Shown here: positions 3,539-16,756 of the stretch, piece after piece
How the letters are laid out: each line of letters begins with the position of its first letter
How positions within the stretch are numbered: position 1 is the first letter of the stretch
Source of the DNA: a virus
Lineage: Duplodnaviria; Caudoviricetes
Direction: 5' to 3' (one strand)
Virus record (IMG/VR): IMGVR_UViG_3300033463_000015
Length of the DNA stretch: 64,000 bases
Notes under the pieces: model-generated
Seen by the model: only the letters and a program-made list of their open reading frames with translations
What the model was told of the DNA's origin: nothing
Database searches by the model: none
Position numbers and translations under genes: made by a program

Positions 3539-3613
3539 TGCGGCGAGGGCAAACGGTAAGCCAACTGGCTCATAACCAGTATATAGTGGGTTCAACTCCC
3601 ACCACCGCTACCA
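3539..3613 (+). tRNA. tRNA-Met(CAT), possibly initiator
   Basis: ACTGG-CTCATAA-CCAGT, 1:72 mismatch, CCA. Confidence 0.85.
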
Positions 3614-4515: not shown

Positions 4516-4588
4516 GCCCTGCGTGGCAGCCGGTTTAAGCCGTTGGCCCTTCAAGCCAAAGTACCGAGTTCAACTCTCGGGCAGGGTA
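4516..4588 (+). tRNA. tRNA-Glu(TTC), atypical C33
   Basis: TTGGC-CCTTCAA-GCCAA. Confidence 0.75.
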
Positions 4589-4593
4589 CTTAT

Positions 4594-4665
4594 GTCCAGT
4601 TAGCATAATGGTTAGTGCGTCGCCCTCTCAAGGCGAGGATATGAGTTCGATTCTCGTACTGGGTA
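4594..4665 (+). tRNA. tRNA-Glu(CTC)
   Basis: TCGCC-CTCTCAA-GGCGA. Confidence 0.85.
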
Positions 4666-4748
4666 CTCTCACCTTAGCAAAAGCGGTGACTAAACCGATG
4701 TGCGGTTGGCTGACCTTAAAGCTATTTTTTATTATAGTGAGGGATTTT

Positions 4749-5732
4749 ATGCTAGATATTATCATTCCCGTCTACAATAATTAGCAAGGATTGACAGAAA
4801 CTTTATAGTCTATAAATCCCGCTATTATGAAGGATATTACAATTACAATTATAGATGATTGCTCTTCTGTACAATATGATGTAAAAACTATTCGTATGCC
4901 GCAGAATGGTGGCCCCGGAGCCGCACGCCAATATGGTATTAATCATACAATAGAACCATTTATTATGTTTGTAGATGCAGGAGATACTTTTGTTGATTTT
5001 GATTCGTAGTTAGAAATGATAGAAACAATAAAACATACAGATGCTTTATTTATTTCTTTTCTTCATAATACAATAAAAGAAGATGGTACAATTCGTCTTG
5101 AAAAGCATACTAACAATAGATTACACGGTAAAGTTTATCGTCGTAGCTTTTTAAATCAATATCACATAACATTTTGTTAGGGAAAAATTGGTTCATACGC
5201 CAATGAAGATATTGGCTTTAATTTTATATGTCATCATATATTAGAAGATAAAAATTTAGAAAATAAGTTTATATGTATAGATGTTCCATTAATTAATTGG
5301 ACTTATGATGAACAATCTCTTACTCATATAAATAATAATGCTTATGGATTTGTAAAATAGGTTCCTGGGCTTATTGAAAATACTCAACATATTGTAGAAG
5401 TATTAGAAGATAATGATTGTAATGCAGAAATAATTGCTAAAATATTATATAATATGCTAGGTAGATTATATACTGATTTTGTCAATGTTGCCGCATTTTG
5501 TCCAGAAAGAATTGATATTACTTGGAAACAATGTAGAACTTATTATCTCAATGATGTATTGCCCTACAAGGAATATAGAGACACTAATCTAAATAATATC
5601 TATATTGGCGGCTTTATGTATAGAGTAATGACTTGGAAGAAAAAAGTTCCAATAAATTATAATCGTTTTCTTCAAGAGTTAGAAAATTGTGAAAAAGCGC
5701 CAAAAAGATATTTTGAATTTTATCAATTATAA
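4749..5732 (+). CDS. Glycosyltransferase family 2; TAG=Gln
   Basis: MLDIIIPVYNN...IIDDCS...NGGPGAARQYG...FVDAGD motifs; fragments joined through TAG only. Confidence 0.85.
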
Positions 5733-5873: not shown

Positions 5874-5944
5874 AGCAGAGAGACGATTTGGTAATCGTGT
5901 GAGGGACGCCCACGTTGCGAGTTCAATTCTCGCCTCTGCTTTCA
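5874..5944 (+). ncRNA. tRNA-like RNA with truncated, non-canonical anticodon arm
   Basis: Acceptor AGCAGAG/CTCTGCT, D arm ACGA/TCGT, T arm GCGAG-TTCAATT-CTCGC; no 7-nt anticodon loop. Confidence 0.65.
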
Positions 5945-7530: not shown

Positions 7531-8117
7531 AGGAGATATTAGGTTAGTAAATTTTGAACCAAGTGAAGATGTGCTAACCACACAGCTTGGGCTATCCGTA
7601 TAGTAGCTGTCACTGCCCGAAGGATACTTTTGGTTAAACAGCCGCCAAAACAGCAATGTTAGGCGATAAAGGAGAAACTCCAAATACTAAGGATAGGCGC
7701 TTGGGTGTTCGCAATCAAAAGCACTTTTCCTCTCGGCTACATAATAGAAAGCTTGTTGAACAGACGAGCCGAATCCAGATAAGGCATTGGGGTGGTAGCC
7801 AATGCAAACTCTGGAAATACCATAAGTAGCTATCGGCGTTGATGAAAGCCGGAAACGGCATATAAGAGAGGTTTGTGGTGGGAGTAGGCCAAAGCGACGT
7901 ACAAGTAATATTGAATAAAAGAATTATTGAATATTGCTGAATGGTTTGGCTGAAACTTGAAGGTAGTCAATCCTTCCTACACACGGCGAAAGCGGATCGA
8001 AGAAGCTATGGGATCGCTACCTATGGCTCAGCCTTCGGTTCTGTAGTGGCTGAATATGATTGAAGAATTACTCGGGTACGGCGAAGGTCGCAACAGTTTA
8101 CTAACCTAATATCTCCT
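7531..8117 (+). ncRNA. ROOL-like large RNA
   Basis: 587 nt; long terminal stem AGGAGATATTAGGTTAGTAAA/TTTACTAACCTAATATCTCCT; own promoter 7485-7512; internal motifs (GAAGGTAGTCAATCCTT, GGATCGCTACC, GCTCAG, GTGGCTGAATA, GAAGGTCGC) match ROOL as recalled. Confidence 0.75.
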
Positions 8118-8142: not shown

Positions 8143-8604
8143 ATGAGACGAATTACTACAATTGTTCTTACGCTATGTTGCTTGCTAATGCCATTGGCCG
8201 CTCTGGGAGACAGTAGCCGTTCTCCTACATTAGATGCTTTATGGTACGCGGAACCAACACTACAGTTTCAGCTAATTAATAATATGGATGAATATGCTGA
8301 ATATCTAGAACTTATTTCAACCTATTATGACCTTGAGGGCTTCACAGAAATGGTTCTAGGAACAGATAAATTTCATATTGTTGATATGATTATCGTTACT
8401 TTAGACCAGACATATGGACGTGTTGTATGGCATACCCCCTATGGCTTTACAACTACTGATAATATCTGTGTCTTTATGATTTCTACGAATCTTTGGCAGG
8501 GATATGTAATGAATGCCAATGGTGATAGAAATGATAATCTAATTGTAAATTATAGTGAAGTGTCTCCGGGTACTTACTTTATGATTATCTATGCGGCTGA
8601 TTAA
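8143..8604 (+). CDS. Hypothetical secreted protein
   Basis: N-terminal signal-peptide-like segment, RBS. Confidence 0.65.
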   Translation: MRRITTIVLTLCCLLMPLAALGDSSRSPTLDALWYAEPTLQFQLINNMDEYAEYLELISTYYDLEGFTEMVLGTDKFHIVDMIIVTLDQTYGRVVWHTPYGFTTTDNICVFMISTNLWQGYVMNANGDRNDNLIVNYSEVSPGTYFMIIYAAD

Positions 8605-8636
8605 ATCAGTCGCGTTTTTTATTAGGAGTGAAAGAT

Positions 8637-9578
8637 ATGCCATTACCAGTATTATTTGCAGGAACAAGGCCACTTGGCAGAGCAGAAAATATTACCGCAT
8701 TATATGAGGCTTATTAGGGACTGAAAAAATATATTCAAGTTAGCGGAAGTAACGACCATCCAGAAATACGTTCTGGCAATTATAGAGTTTTAATTATTGA
8801 TGACTTTGGCTGTCGCAATCCTGGTAAATGTATTTTACTATGGCACGCTATTTAGGGCGGCAAATATATCGGTCTTAATTAGCCATTCCCTTATACTTCA
8901 TAGCAAAATATAAATAAAATTGATTATATTATTGCCGCAGGTGATGACGCTATTCCAATGTGGTAGCAATGTACTAATTTAGCCGCAGATAAAATTTTGC
9001 CGCTAGGAATGCCACGAACCGATTAGTTTATTGGCAAAACAAAAGGTGATGGGCATACATTATTGGCTAATAAAAAAGCTTATTTATATGCTCCTACTTT
9101 TAGACTTTCTAGTGAGCCATTATTCTTTTAGTTAGATTATGATTGGTTAGATAAACAATTAACTGATGATGAGATATTCGCAGTAAAAGCACATATGGTT
9201 GGAAAGAAAATTTTATCTAAAAAATATAATCATATTGTGGAAATCTCACAAAACGAGCCATCAACTCCATATTTATGTGATTGTGATGTTGTAATAACTG
9301 ATTATAGCAGCATTATATTTGATGGCTATTTACTAAATAAACCTGCTATTTTATTTGAAAAAAGTAGCGGTTATGCCGCTAGCCGTGGAATGTATATGAA
9401 TTATCCTAATGAGTATTGTTCTAAATATGCGACTAATGAATAGGAGTTATTAGATTTATTACGTTCTACTAATGAACTTACAGAAGTAGAAAGAAAATGT
9501 ATTCAACGAGTAGCGAATAAATGCGATGGAAATTCTTGCCAGCGCATTTGTGAACTAATTAAAAAGTTGAATTTTTAA
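8637..9578 (+). CDS. CDP-glycerol glycerophosphotransferase (TagF/TagB-like); TAG=Gln
   Basis: WHA, LGMPRTD, YLYAPTFR and DVVITDYSSIIFD motifs; open except for TAGs. Confidence 0.85.
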
Positions 9579-9678
9579 AATAATTTTACTTGACTTTTCC
9601 CAAAATTATAGTATAATATAATTGTACCAAAGGGAAATGGTGCCGATATAGCTCAGTAGGTAGGTGCGTCTCCTTGGT

Positions 9679-10163
9679 TTGAAAATCTGCTTTATTATGC
9701 TTCTTTTGGGAGGATGATAAAATGGAATTAAATACCAAACAAAAAGGTAATATTACTGAAATGCAATGTGCCGTTGCTTTTATGTAGCAAGGATACAAAG
9801 TTAGCTTTCCATATGGTGAAGATTGTAAATATGATATGATTGTAGATACTGGTAAACATTTATATCGAGTACAATGTAAAACTTCATCTAAATTACCAAA
9901 TTCAGAAGAAGGATTTAAATTTAAAACTAGATCAACTGTAATTACAACTCATGGAGTAAAAACATCTGGATATTCACAAGAAGAAATAGATGTATTTGCT
10001 ACAATGTACGAAGGTCAATGCTATGTAATATCTGTAAAAGATTGTGGCGTAAATGAAAAAATTTTACGTTTCCAATATCCTAAAAATGGTCAGCATAAAG
10101 GCATTACCTTAGCTGTAGATTACAAATTGGAGCAAACTAAAGCATTTGAGTGATTTTTAAACA
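9679..10163 (+). mobile_element. Endonuclease-carrying tRNA insert with no group I core
   Basis: Ends pair (TTGAAAATC/GATTTTTAA, TGCTTT/AAAGCA); only ~43 and ~10 nt flank the ORF. Confidence 0.7.
9722..10153 (+). CDS. PD-(D/E)XK homing endonuclease (I-Ssp6803I-like); TAG=Gln
   Basis: TKQKGNITE...PYGEDCKYDMIVD...RVQCKT motif. Confidence 0.85.
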
Positions 10164-10206
10164 AAGGAGAAGGTCCCCAGTTCAAATCTGGGTATCGGCT
10201 TCATAT

Positions 10207-10708: not shown

Positions 10709-11061
10709 GGGGTAGTTTTGGTTTCGACAGGTTATGAATGGTATTGAAATCACGGGTAGGCGGCGCACCTTACGCAGCAAACAATTGAACTGACAACGAT
10801 TATTTCTATAGCGAACTAAAGGCTGCTTAATTGCAGTTTCGCGCCTAAACAACAAACCTGCTAATCGGTAAATGTTTGCGGTTCAGAGATAGATTAGTAG
10901 ATTGGCTTCGGGCCAGCTGGTCTTCTCTATTCACAGTCCAACGAATAGAGTGGTGGAAGGATCATTCCCAGTTTGTCAGAACTTAAAACTGACTATCGTG
11001 TAAGTAATTTTCAATATTGGTTGTAGCTTGGACAGGGGTTCAACTCCCCTCTACTCCACCA
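10709..11061 (+). ncRNA. ssrA: tmRNA; tag (A)DNDYFYSELKAA*
   Basis: GGGGTAG...GGTTTCGAC 5' end, T arm and CTACTCC-ACCA 3' end with G3:U; tag ORF 10792-10830 ends in AA. Confidence 0.92.
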
Positions 11062-13151: not shown

Positions 13152-13649
13152 ATGTTTGATATTGAAGAAAATAAGCGTCTCTGCGACACATATCCCTTCC
13201 TTATTCCCTTCAATCGCTTCAGCGGCAAGCGTATTAACTGTGGCGAAAAAGGTTACTGGCCCGGTAATCCTGATGAGTATCCGCCAGAATGGAACTATGA
13301 ATATACAGAACTTGATGATATGCCAGATGGATGGCGTGATGCTTTTGGTGAACAATTGTGCTTTGAAATTAAACAAGCTTTGCTTGATGAAGGTGGCGAA
13401 AAGCTTCTTGATGAGTATCGCGTTGACCAAATTAAAGAAAAATATGGCACTTTAAGATGGTATGATAATTTTAGCACCAAACGCATTCAAGATATTCTTG
13501 AAAAATATGAAAATTTAAGTGCTCGCACTTGTATTAAATGCGGCAAGCCTGCTACTAAATTAAGCCGCGGGTGGATTGCCCCTTGGTGTGATGAATGCGG
13601 CAATGATGAAGATGAAGCGTATATGAGTTTAGACAATGCTTTTATTTGA
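13152..13649 (+). CDS. Conserved phage hypothetical protein with C-terminal Zn ribbon
   Basis: QIKEKYGTLRWY...TCIKCG...WCDEC. Confidence 0.75.
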   Translation: MFDIEENKRLCDTYPFLIPFNRFSGKRINCGEKGYWPGNPDEYPPEWNYEYTELDDMPDGWRDAFGEQLCFEIKQALLDEGGEKLLDEYRVDQIKEKYGTLRWYDNFSTKRIQDILEKYENLSARTCIKCGKPATKLSRGWIAPWCDECGNDEDEAYMSLDNAFI

Positions 13650-13789
13650 CTTTTGATAAAAAATTTGATATAATATATATAGAAAGTAGGAAATCAGCGA
13701 GTTCTCCCACGAATAAAGTTAGCGCTGTAAAGGGTGGGAACGGTAGGCAGATAGAAGTTGTGAGGTCGCTGATAGGCAACAGATGAAAT

Positions 13790-14052
13790 AGCCCCGTAGT
13801 TGAATGGTACAACACCGGTCTCTAGCCTTAATTGGAGCCTTATATGGAGACGTATAAGTGAAAATGCCGCTAATTCGGTGAAAGCTTAACTGCTAACCCC
13901 GAGCAAGGAGAAATCCGTGTGTAGAGACTTTACACGGCACATCTAGAACAGATGAAGATAAAGTCCGGACCACGATGTGAAAACAATGTGGTGAAGAAAA
14001 CCGTAATATCCCTCTGACGGAGGTTGTCTGGGTTCGAATCCCAGCGGGGCCG
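13790..14052 (+). tRNA. Amber suppressor tRNA(CUA), intron-containing
   Basis: Exons 13790-13823 and 13997-14052 give CCGGT-CTCTAAA-ACCG; long variable arm. Confidence 0.85.
13824..13996 (+). mobile_element. Compact group I intron (173 nt)
   Basis: U.G pair at 5' splice site (CTCT/GGAG), P3 TGCCG/CGGCA, P4 TTCGG/CCGAG, P7 GACTTTA/TAAAGTC, terminal G. Confidence 0.88.
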
Positions 14053-14054
14053 TC

Positions 14055-14203
14055 GCGACACTGTAGGCTTAGAAGTAGCCATCAGCTAAAGAGTTTATAT
14101 GCCTCCATTCGTGCGAAATGTATTATGGGCTACAAAAATTGTCCTATAAGTATGATGTGCGGTGGACAAAAGGTAAAATAATTTGGTGTAATAACACAGT
14201 CGC
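14055..14203 (+). ncRNA. 23S rRNA H43/H44 (uL11-binding) mimic RNA
   Basis: TGTAGGCTTAGAAGTAGCCATCAGCTAAAGAGT...GTGTAATAAC closed by GCGAC/GTCGC. Confidence 0.7.
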
Positions 14204-14233: not shown

Positions 14234-14367
14234 CTGGGTGTAGCGCAGTTTGGTAGCGCATCAGATTTGAAAATCTAGCATAACGGTAATGCTTTATATC
14301 AGAGTTCGATTCTCTGGATTTTCACGGGATCTGAGGGTCGTGAGTTCAAATCTCACCACCCAGACCA
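14234..14367 (+). tRNA. tRNA-Pro (TGG or CGG) with a 57-nt tRNA-like insert in the anticodon loop
   Basis: CTGGGTG/CACCCAG-ACCA, TCAGA/TCTGA anticodon stem; insert ~14269-14325. Confidence 0.85.
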
Positions 14368-16419: not shown

Positions 16420-16705
16420 GCGGGTATGGCGGAATAGGCAGACGCCACAGACTTTAATAAAAAGAGCACTAGAATAGGAAACTTTCTGAGTGAATGCTGG
16501 CTAATTCGGTGAAAGTCCTTATGGGATAACGCCGAGCTAAATGGTTTAAAACCTAAATGTGTAGAGACTATATACCAGCCACCTAAATCATAAGATATGG
16601 TGAAGACATAGTCCAGACTACAACGTGTAAGCGGCCATAGTAATATGGAGTAGTAGGAAAATCTGTTGCCCTCTGGGCGTGCCGGTTCAAGTCCGGCTAC
16701 CCGTA
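16420..16705 (+). tRNA. tRNA-Leu(TAA), intron-containing
   Basis: Exons 16420-16454 and 16658-16705 give ACAGA-CTTAAAA-TCTGT. Confidence 0.9.
16455..16657 (+). mobile_element. Group I intron (203 nt)
   Basis: AATTCGGTGAAA, GTAGAGACTAT and ATAGTCC core; inserted after U34 as in cyanobacterial tRNA-Leu(UAA) introns. Confidence 0.9.
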
Positions 16706-16756
16706 CTTATAATCAAAACACCTCCCTTTCTCTACGCGGCGGAAACGCCGCATTAT

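What the first reader, a model, noticed from the sequence alone, without database searches (positions are those of the whole stretch)
13790..14052. Amber suppressor tRNA is gated by a group I intron splitting its CUA anticodon
Seen: the anticodon is split CT|A by a group I intron, and splicing yields the loop CTCTAAA. It is the only CUA tRNA in the window and would probably be missed by standard scanners. Inference: read-through of every TAG-containing gene may depend on self-splicing, giving a possible timing switch and making the intron hard to lose imprecisely. The tRNA also has an A1.C72 mismatch and a long variable arm, unusual for a Gln acceptor.
Basis: partly seen in the sequence, partly recalled or inferred. 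Interest (0 to 1): 0.8.

Follow-up and report, generated by a model that had tools for sequence, protein, structure and literature searches.

The report
Intron-split amber suppressor tRNA in phage
A large gut or rumen phage that reads the stop codon TAG as glutamine has its only detectable TAG-reading tRNA gene cut inside the anticodon by a very small group I (self-splicing type) intron, which hides the gene from standard tools but looks like a sporadic passenger and not a purpose-built timer.

Summary
Window 13790-14052 (+) is a tRNA(CUA) gene split between anticodon bases 35 and 36 by a 173-nt, ORF-less group I intron (13824-13996). U-1 is T13823 and omega-G is G13996; the joined exons give the loop CUCUAAA. 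Default ARAGORN, Rfam tRNA and Rfam Intron_gpI at gathering score all miss it. ARAGORN with introns finds it, and Intron_gpI scores 39.7 bits when the region is searched alone.

The splice junction is supported by 45 intron-less relatives in IMG/VR with the identical anticodon stem-loop. One has an identical 5' exon, and its alignment breaks exactly at 13823|13997. Six distinct intron-bearing relatives show compensatory changes in P2, P3, P6, P8, P9 and all tRNA arms.

TAG is a sense codon in about half the genes and aligns with Gln. No other suppressor, release factor or GlnRS lies in the 101-kb record, which is only about 57% complete.

The "timing switch" reading is not supported: the intron is rare and sporadic in this tRNA family, was gained at least twice, has no regulatory add-on, and other tRNAs here are split too.

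The "long variable arm" is a conserved copy of the Gln anticodon loop. Earlier notes of this scan describe both features on other DNA. I found neither in the papers I could search.

The parts
13646..13674 (+). Sigma-70-type promoter (TTGACT, 17 nt, TG-TATAAT), about 115 nt upstream of the tRNA
   Evidence: 11 of 12 consensus matches with an extended -10. Conserved with the leader in L043 (85% identity over 13639-14052). Function is inferred.
13681..13789 (+). Structured 5' leader of the precursor
   Evidence: MFE -25.6 kcal/mol, z -2.45. No Rfam match. Role unknown.
13790..13823 (+). 5' exon: tRNA positions 1-35 (acceptor 5' strand, D arm, anticodon stem 5' strand, loop C32 U33 C34 U35)
   Evidence: ARAGORN -i. 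Identical over 37 nt to the intron-less allele in L075. Acceptor and D stems covary.
13820..13837 (+). P1: exon CUCU (13820-13823) pairs with the internal guide GGAG (13834-13837). U13823.G13834 is the wobble pair at the 5' splice site.
   Evidence: All four pairs are invariant in 6 homologues. Same register as the RF00028 alignment.
13824..13996 (+). 173-nt ORF-less group I intron. Helices: P2 13839-13846/13851-13858 (L2 GAGA); P3 13865-13869/13935-13939; P4 13875-13880/13897-13902; P5 13883-13885/13892-13894; P6 13903-13909/13914-13920; P7 13926-13932/13959-13965; P8 13940-13944/13950-13954; P9 13970-13978/13983-13991 (L9 GAAA); omega-G 13996.
   Evidence: RF00028 39.7 bits over model positions 1-253. 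Covariation in P2, P3, P6, P8 and P9. P7 covaries against the Leu intron of this window, GACUUUA/UAAAGUC versus GACUAUA/AUAGUC. The MFE fold recovers P2, P4-P6, P8 and P9, z -2.94.
13997..14052 (+). 3' exon: A36, A37, A38, anticodon stem 3' strand, extra arm, T arm, acceptor 3' strand, G73. No encoded CCA.
   Evidence: 89-93% identical to intron-less alleles. The near-identical intron-less tRNA in L075 scores 56.9 bits on RF00005.
14005..14025 (+). Extra ('variable') arm: a 7-position stem closing a 7-nt loop CUCUGAC (14012-14018), which copies a Gln anticodon loop (CUG)
   Evidence: Stem covaries (C-G to G-C, A-U to U-A). Loop is YUYUGAM in nearly all long-arm relatives, with CUG or UUG at the anticodon-like positions. 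The phage's own tRNA-Gln(UUG) loop is CUUUGAC.
16420..16706 (+). Second intron-split tRNA of the array: tRNA-Leu(UAA) with a 203-nt group I intron (16455-16657) at the classical U34|A35 site
   Evidence: RF00028 65.5 bits. Aligned to the suppressor precursor. Its intron falls in a different clade from the suppressor intron.

Best explanation
This is a working amber-suppressor tRNA gene of a TAG-to-Gln recoded phage. A minimal (173-nt, ORF-less) IC3-like group I intron has colonised it between U35 and A36.

Proposed pathway:
1. Host RNA polymerase transcribes a leader-exon-intron-exon precursor from a consensus promoter (inferred).
2. The intron folds into P1-P9, with the exon's CUCU paired to the guide GGAG (shown by model match and covariation).
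3. Guanosine attacks after U13823, and the freed U35 then attacks after omega-G13996. This joins the exons into the loop CUCUAAA. The chemistry is inferred from the family; the junction is shown by intron-less alleles.
4. After end trimming and CCA addition, host enzymes charge the tRNA with glutamine. They would use G73, an unpaired A1.C72, G2:C71 and probably the extra arm, which displays a Gln anticodon loop (inferred).
5. The tRNA reads UAG in roughly half of the phage genes, while replication genes are TAG-free (shown).

Suppression therefore depends on splicing. The intron itself is most likely a tolerated, sporadically acquired passenger and not a regulatory device.
For: Gene anatomy and splice sites.

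Junction:
- 45 IMG/VR loci and phage phAss-1 carry the uninterrupted sequence CCGGTCTCTAAAACCGT.
- The L075 alignment breaks exactly at 13823|13997, and that allele is a good tRNA (56.9 bits).

Ribozyme fold under selection:
- 23 pairs with double changes, 95.7% paired, 0 of 500 shuffles.
- GNRA L2 and GAAA L9.
- z -2.94.

Recoding:
- Long ORFs appear only when TAG is read through.
- PolIII-alpha, gyrase, DnaB, RecJ, NrdD and the ligases have no TAG.

Glutamine:
- TAG swaps with CAA/CAG between orthologues.
- Q sits at 25% of TAG-aligned cells against 2.9% elsewhere.
- G73 in 30 of 32 relatives, and never a strong 1:72 pair in the long-arm forms.

Passenger status:
- The intron-bearing form is rare in the family.
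- A second, phylogenetically separate intron sits at the same site in L014.
- The relative L094 has a split suppressor but an unsplit Leu(UAA).
- There is no ORF or extra domain.
Against: - No RNA data: splicing, its rate and its independence from proteins are untested.
- RF00028 scores below its gathering threshold (39.7 against 50).
- P1 and P7 never vary within the suppressor set, so they carry no internal covariation.
- The intron is kept, with compensatory changes, across a clade of rumen phages in which it splits the only suppressor of the array. That also fits a retained function.
- About 43% of the genome is unseen.
- Glutamine charging and the role of the extra arm are inferences.
Confidence: 0.78

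Rival explanations
1. Splicing-gated code switch. The intron delays or conditions the appearance of the suppressor, so that TAG-containing late genes are translated only after the ribozyme step, for example in response to GTP or Mg2+ or through slow folding.
For: - The mature anticodon exists only after splicing.
- It is the only suppressor in the 101-kb record and in the tRNA arrays of relatives G001 and L094.
- The intron is conserved with compensatory changes in a clade.
- TAG is concentrated in structural and late genes.
- Borges et al. (10.1101/2021.08.26.457843) argue that recoding times late genes.
Against: - Most members of the same tRNA family lack the intron, so the code switch works without it.
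- Introns were gained independently at this site.
- Other non-suppressor tRNAs in the same array are split too.
- The intron is a bare catalytic core with no sensor-like addition.
- TAG-containing genes (glycosyltransferases at 4539-5732 and 8601-9578) lie inside the tRNA region itself.
- From background knowledge, group I tRNA introns splice fast and constitutively.
Confidence: 0.1
2. Dead gene. The intron cannot splice, the tRNA is a relic, and TAG is read by another suppressor in the unsequenced 43% of the genome or by a host factor.
For: - RF00028 is below its gathering score.
- The record is 57% complete.
- phAss-1-type phages carry two or three suppressors.
Against: - Exons and ribozyme helices are kept by compensatory changes across six diverged copies.
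- U-1.G, omega-G, the P7 core, the GNRA L2 and the GAAA L9 are all intact.
- The promoter is near-consensus.
- No other suppressor lies in the full tRNA arrays of relatives.
Confidence: 0.05
3. The tRNA is charged with serine or another class II amino acid, not glutamine, because of its long extra arm and G73. ARAGORN's 'Pyl' label could similarly be read as pyrrolysine.
For: - A long extra arm plus G73 and G2:C71 resemble E. coli tRNA-Ser identity elements (background knowledge).
- At one PhoH TAG column the homologues mostly have Ser.
Against: - TAG swaps mainly with CAA/CAG between orthologues.
- Q is enriched ninefold at TAG columns, whereas S is 10% against a 5% background.
- The D arm is type I (4-bp stem, 7-nt loop).
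- The extra-arm loop is sequence-conserved as a Gln anticodon loop, which SerRS does not read.
- 1:72 is weak or unpaired with G73, as in tRNA-Gln.
- No PylS in the record.
Confidence: 0.05

Closest known systems
Group I intron of tRNA-Leu(UAA), subgroup IC3 (cyanobacteria, plastids; class 'Leu.3Ug' of Williams 2020, bioRxiv 10.1101/2020.01.27.920355)
   Same: - A small ORF-less group I intron in a tRNA anticodon loop.
- U-1.G wobble in a short P1 built from the loop, and omega-G.
- P2 with a GNRA loop and P9 with GAAA.
- A copy sits in this same window (16455-16657, 65.5 bits). Its core aligns with the suppressor intron, and the two whole precursors average 74% column identity.
   Different: - The host tRNA is a stop-codon suppressor of a phage.
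- The insertion is one base further 3' (CUCU|AAA, i.e. 35|36; '4Ug' in Williams' numbering, against CUU|AAAA).
- 173 nt against 203 nt here.
- On a small tree it falls in a separate clade from the Leu introns (99/99).
Other bacterial tRNA group I introns (fMet.2Ug, Arg.5Ug, Ile2.5Ug and 17 further classes; Williams 2020). The 205-nt Azoarcus tRNA-Ile intron is cited from background knowledge.
   Same: Same kind of element and the same logic for mapping it from the exons. IC3-like architecture.
   Different: - That survey covered bacterial and archaeal genomes, not phages.
- Its text mentions no suppressor or CUA class; its table is an image I could not read.
- At 171-175 nt, these introns are shorter than the Azoarcus intron.
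Phage-encoded tRNA-Sup(CUA) of TAG-to-Gln ('code 15') phages, e.g. phAss-1 OQ749652 62445-62532 (PMC10607447); crAss-like and Lak phages (PMC7886860, PMC6784885, 10.1101/2021.08.26.457843)
   Same: - Same tRNA family: identical anticodon stem-loop, the same extra arm with the loop CUCUGAA, a weak 1:72 pair and G73.
- Same role in a phage whose late genes carry in-frame TAG.
   Different: - Those genes are uninterrupted.
- Those papers report that only about 40% of TAG-recoded phages have a detectable suppressor, and suggest non-canonical tRNAs as the reason. None describes an intron-split suppressor.
'Enigmatic' introns in Lak megaphage tRNAs (Devoto et al. 2019, PMC6784885)
   Same: Introns in the anticodon loops of phage tRNA genes, in a TAG-recoded phage.
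   Different: The paper reports testing the Lak inserts against Rfam but gives no class for them; one looks tRNA-like. The suppressor is not among the tRNAs it names as split. Here the intron is a recognisable ribozyme.
E. coli supE (tRNA-Gln with anticodon CUA); background knowledge
   Same: An amber suppressor inserting Gln, with a weak first pair and G73.
   Different: supE is a point mutant of a normal tRNA-Gln. It has no intron and no extra arm.

Membership tests
Group I intron (Rfam RF00028; IC3-like tRNA introns) | Match to the family covariance model at its curated threshold | tested here: inconclusive
   39.7 bits, E 3.6e-9, full model 1-253 when 191 nt are searched alone. The gathering score is 50, and larger scans do not report it. 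Williams 2020 accepted hits of 18-20 bits or more when they lay inside a split tRNA.
Group I intron (Rfam RF00028; IC3-like tRNA introns) | U at -1 forming a U.G wobble with the internal guide in P1 | tested here: met
   U13823.G13834, followed by C-G, U-A and C-G. Invariant in 6 homologues.
Group I intron (Rfam RF00028; IC3-like tRNA introns) | G at the last intron position (omega-G), giving a correct mature RNA | tested here: met
   G13996 is the only nearby G whose use gives a 7-nt loop. The product equals the intron-less alleles.
Group I intron (Rfam RF00028; IC3-like tRNA introns) | Conserved core helices P3-P8 with the P3/P7 pseudoknot, supported by covariation | tested here: met
   P3 has 2 pairs, P6 1 pair and P8 2 pairs with double changes. 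P4/P5 change on one side only. P7 is invariant within the set but covaries against the Leu intron.
Group I intron (Rfam RF00028; IC3-like tRNA introns) | Guanosine-dependent self-splicing | not testable with these tools
   Needs in-vitro transcription and a splicing assay, or RNA-seq junction reads.
tRNA (RF00005) | Cloverleaf recognised after in-silico splicing | tested here: met
   ARAGORN calls the spliced sequence a 93-base tRNA(cta). The intron-less allele L075, with an identical 5' exon, scores 56.9 bits against a cut-off of 29. All four arms covary.
Amber suppressor of a TAG-recoded (code 15) phage | In-frame TAG in conserved genes that end in TAA or TGA | tested here: met
   ORFs of 1,900 aa with 36-48 TAG; PhoH, RuvC, GIY-YIG and glycosyltransferases are restored by reading TAG.
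Amber suppressor of a TAG-recoded (code 15) phage | TAG stands for Gln | tested here: met
   TAG pairs with CAA or CAG in 20 of 34 non-identical codon pairs between orthologues; the two relatives used are near-duplicates, so the counts are roughly doubled. Q makes up 25.4% of TAG columns against 2.9% elsewhere. Caveat: database proteins of close relatives are themselves translated with TAG=Q.
tRNA-Gln identity (bacterial GlnRS set, background knowledge) | G73, a weak or open 1:72 pair, G2:C71, G3:C70, G10, and anticodon U35 and G36 | tested here: inconclusive
   - G73, A1.C72, G2:C71 and G10 are present.
- Position 3:70 is C:G here (G:C in L005, L060, L074).
- Position 36 is A by necessity.
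- A CUG/UUG loop is offered by the extra arm.
- Charging was not tested.
tRNA-Pyl (ARAGORN's label) | Pyl-type body (short D loop, 3-nt variable loop) and a PylRS partner | tested here: not met
   Normal D arm and a 21-nt extra arm. No PylS in the record. The label only reflects the CUA anticodon.

The most novel reading that the evidence does not exclude
The phage's switch from the standard code to the TAG=Gln code really is gated by a ribozyme. Splicing of the only suppressor would be rate-limiting or conditional (on GTP, Mg2+ or folding state), so it would set when late, TAG-rich genes can be translated. The clade-wide retention of the intron would then reflect that function and not mere tolerance.
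Probability: 0.1. Interest if true: 0.85.

Novelty: new variant of a known kind. Interest (0 to 1): 0.6.

Why it matters
[quoted passage not shown] This locus is a concrete case. The suppressor is there, but a group I intron inside the anticodon hides it from ARAGORN, from the Rfam tRNA model and from Intron_gpI at curated thresholds. Scanning with introns allowed, plus a lower Intron_gpI threshold inside split tRNAs, should recover such genes and improve code prediction and annotation.

It also makes a change of genetic code depend on an RNA-catalysed step, which can be tested directly. At 171-175 nt, these are candidate near-minimal natural group I ribozymes.

The same tRNA carries a conserved copy of the Gln anticodon loop in its extra arm. 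That suggests how a stop-codon reader is charged with the right amino acid.

Tried and rejected
1. P1 with GGAGAC (13846-13851) as the guide. Rejected: L034 has AGUAAU there, and the stretch is the tip of P2 with a GNRA loop. GGAG at 13834-13837 is invariant.
2. Rfam's alignment end at G13990 as omega-G. Rejected: only G13996 gives a 7-nt loop and matches the intron-less alleles.
3. An extra arm with a 5-bp stem and a 3-nt loop. Rejected in favour of a 7-position stem and 7-nt loop, because 221:231 and 216:236 covary.
4. ARAGORN's 8-bp acceptor and 'Pyl' drawing. Rejected: the family shows a 7-bp stem with a weak 1:72 pair and G73.
5. My first guess that this is a crAss-like phage. Not supported: the genes seen are PolIII-alpha, gyrase, DnaB and NrdD, and the nearest named relative of the tRNA is phAss-1, filed under 'Caudoviricetes code 15 clade'.
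6. Recent spread of the intron from the Leu intron of the same genome. Not supported by the small tree.
7. Using Q in close database homologues as evidence for Gln. Dropped, because those proteins are translated with TAG=Q. I used codon swaps and distant homologues instead.
8. The exact-match IMG/VR scan with this window's own junction found nothing.
9. The whole records behind the metagenome loci L044 and L042 could not be searched. I reached 20 kb of L044's contig through a protein look-up.
10. Six full-text literature searches found no description of an intron-split suppressor.

Full report
**What is there**

Window 13790-14052 on the + strand reads as a tRNA whose anticodon loop is interrupted.
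- The 5' part (13790-13823) gives acceptor strand AGCCCCG, D arm GTTG/CAAC, anticodon-stem strand CCGGT and the loop bases CUCU.
- The 3' part (13997-14052) gives AAA, the stem strand ACCGT, a 21-nt extra arm, the T arm CTGGG/CCCAG, the acceptor strand CGGGGCC and G73.
It also recognises the in-silico spliced sequence as a tRNA.

Standard scans miss it.
- Default ARAGORN lists 20 tRNAs without it.
- Rfam at gathering thresholds reports neither a tRNA nor an intron here.
- A 3.5-kb scan at E<=1 is also blank.
- Searched alone, the stretch matches Intron_gpI (RF00028) over the whole model at 39.7 bits, E 3.6e-9, below the curated 50 bits.

**The splice junction**

The intron must start after a U and end in G.
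- U13823 pairs as a wobble with G13834 of an invariant GGAG guide.
- G13996 is the only nearby G that leaves a 7-nt loop, CUCUAAA.

Direct support comes from intron-less relatives.
- Phage phAss-1 (OQ749652) and 45 IMG/VR loci carry the uninterrupted sequence CCGGTCTCTAAAACCGT in a tRNA with the same extra arm and T arm.
- One of them, L075, has a 5' exon identical to this window's. Its two BLAST segments abut at window 13823/13824 and 13997.
- That allele scores 56.9 bits as a tRNA.

**The ribozyme**

A junction pattern retrieved nine metagenome contigs, and an intron-core pattern one IMG/VR contig, with an intron-bearing suppressor. Six sequences are distinct and full-length.

I wrote a structure with the four tRNA arms, the extra arm and P1-P9, including the P3/P7 pseudoknot. 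On this structure:
- 95.7% of cells pair, against 33-44% when partners are slid.
- 23 pairs change on both sides.
- No shuffle out of 500 reaches the observed values.
- P2, P3, P6, P8 and P9 all show compensatory changes.
- P1 and P7 never vary within this set.

P7 does covary against the tRNA-Leu(UAA) intron of the same window, GACUUUA/UAAAGUC versus GACUAUA/AUAGUC. L2 is always a GNRA tetraloop and L9 is GAAA, as in small IC3 tRNA introns (background knowledge). The thermodynamic fold alone recovers P2, P4-P6, P8 and P9, with z -2.94. There is no ORF in the intron. Lengths in the clade are 171-192 nt.

**Is the suppressor needed?**

The window lies in a 101,447-bp linear IMG/VR record that CheckV rates 57% complete. 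Reading TAG through merges fragments into long ORFs. Two of about 1,900 aa carry 36 and 48 TAG codons, and a block of large genes of mostly unknown function (one with lectin-type domains) carries 5-10 each. PhoH, RuvC, GIY-YIG and glycosyltransferases are restored in this way. PolIII-alpha, gyrase B and A, DnaB, RecJ, NrdD, RNA ligase and DNA ligase have no TAG.

**Which residue does TAG encode?**

- Between orthologues of this record and a relative (L053/L054), TAG most often swaps with CAA or CAG: 20 of 34 non-identical pairs. The two relatives are near-duplicates, so the counts are roughly doubled.
- In 116 PhoH homologues under 70% identity, Q fills 25.4% of cells aligned to the six TAG codons, against 2.9% elsewhere.
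- Database proteins of close relatives are translated with TAG=Q, so I did not count them as evidence.

**Other suppressors and translation factors**

- No other CUA, UUA or UCA tRNA is in the record, with or without introns. The three extra tRNAs that Rfam finds carry other anticodons.
- No release factor, GlnRS/GluRS or PylS is present.
- In relatives, the split gene is again the only suppressor in the tRNA array: 30 tRNAs in G001, and 10 in 20 kb of a 177-kb contig.

**Gate or passenger?**

Dependence on splicing is real, but nothing points to regulation.
- Within this tRNA family, IMG/VR holds 45 uninterrupted loci. The intron-core scan found only one split gene, in G001, besides this record, which the scans leave out.
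- A human-gut phage (L014) has a different, short-armed suppressor split at the same 35|36 site by a 196-nt intron. That intron groups with tRNA-Leu introns, while this window's intron lies in another clade (99/99 support; small tree of 12 rows). So the site was invaded at least twice.
- In L094 the suppressor is split while Leu(UAA) is not. In the 166-kb phage of L074/L037 the reverse holds.
- This array also has split Leu, Pro and Thr tRNAs.
- The intron has no extra domain.
- The gene follows a near-consensus sigma-70 promoter: 11 of 12 matches with an extended -10.
- TAG-bearing genes sit inside the tRNA region itself.

I therefore read the intron as a tolerated mobile passenger. A timing role cannot be excluded without RNA data.

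**The odd tRNA body**

The A1.C72 mismatch is not an error. It recurs in many relatives, both with and without the intron. Across 32 distinct intron-less relatives, pair 1:72 is U-A, A.C, A-U or U.U in 27. It is G-C only in L072, whose extra arm is of a different kind. G73 is present in 30 of 32. This is the tRNA-Gln pattern (background knowledge).

The extra arm is a covarying stem closing a 7-nt loop. That loop is CUCUGAC here and CUCUGAA or CUUUGAA elsewhere, so CUG or UUG sits at the anticodon-like positions. The phage's own tRNA-Gln(UUG) loop is CUUUGAC. By chance I also met an opal suppressor (UCA) in L021 whose extra-arm loop is CUCCAAA, the Trp anticodon loop. The arm therefore looks like a spare cognate anticodon arm, possibly the element that lets host enzymes charge a stop-codon reader. 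Earlier AI notes of this scan reached the same reading on other genomes. I had formed it before that look-up.

**Comparison with what is known**

- Phage suppressor tRNAs and late-gene recoding are known.
- Introns in phage tRNAs were noted in Lak phages, without a named class.
- I found no paper describing a suppressor tRNA split by a group I intron, nor the spare anticodon arm, in six full-text searches.
- The scan itself has noted intron-split suppressors in at least 38 other genomes.

**Verdict**

This is a new variant of a known kind: a familiar ribozyme in a new and consequential host gene. It has practical value for finding the 'missing' suppressors of recoded phages.

Noticed in passing
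window 14005-14025 (loop 14012-14018); L021 about 737-832: The suppressor's extra arm ends in a conserved copy of the Gln anticodon loop (CUCUGAC here; CUG or UUG in relatives). An opal suppressor (UCA) in L021 carries the Trp loop CUCCAAA in the same place. This may be a spare cognate anticodon arm used as an identity element.
   Followed up: partly
window 16420-16706: tRNA-Leu(UAA) split at the classical U34|A35 site by a 203-nt group I intron (16455-16657; RF00028 65.5 bits). ARAGORN -i mislabels it Phe(gaa). Many IMG/VR phages carry relatives, some with large inserts.
   Followed up: partly
L014 759-1030 (- strand), IMGVR_UViG_3300045988_166972: A 92.7-kb phage contig (IMGVR_UViG_3300045988_166972) has a different, short-armed tRNA(CUA) split at the same 35|36 site by a 196-nt intron that groups with tRNA-Leu introns. 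This is an independent gain.
   Followed up: partly
window 13681-13789: A structured leader lies between the promoter and the tRNA, with a long stem AUCAGCGA/UCGCUGAU (z -2.45). It is conserved in L043 and matches no Rfam family.
   Followed up: partly
window 7535-8110 and 10709-11061: A ROOL RNA (332 bits) and a tmRNA (95 bits) lie inside the phage tRNA array.
   Followed up: no
window 14234-14364 and 9642-10200; L094 15151-15269: Other tRNAs of the array carry non-ribozyme inserts in the anticodon loop: a 55-59-nt insert (ARAGORN 55, Rfam 59) at 14234-14364 and a 485-nt insert at 9642-10200. A relative has a 47-nt insert in tRNA-Thr(GGU).
   Followed up: no
window 3539-3610, 4516-4588, 5874-5941: Rfam finds three tRNAs that default ARAGORN does not (anticodons CAU and UUC, and one weak hit at 31.7 bits). 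None is a suppressor.
   Followed up: partly
P0001-P0004; L053-L055: Proteins of close relatives in the protein collection are translated with TAG=Q. A Q at a TAG-aligned column in such hits is therefore circular evidence for the codon's meaning.
   Followed up: yes
window 14050-14055: This suppressor has no encoded CCA (GCCG then TCG), whereas most relatives encode GCCA. It therefore needs a CCA-adding enzyme.
   Followed up: no
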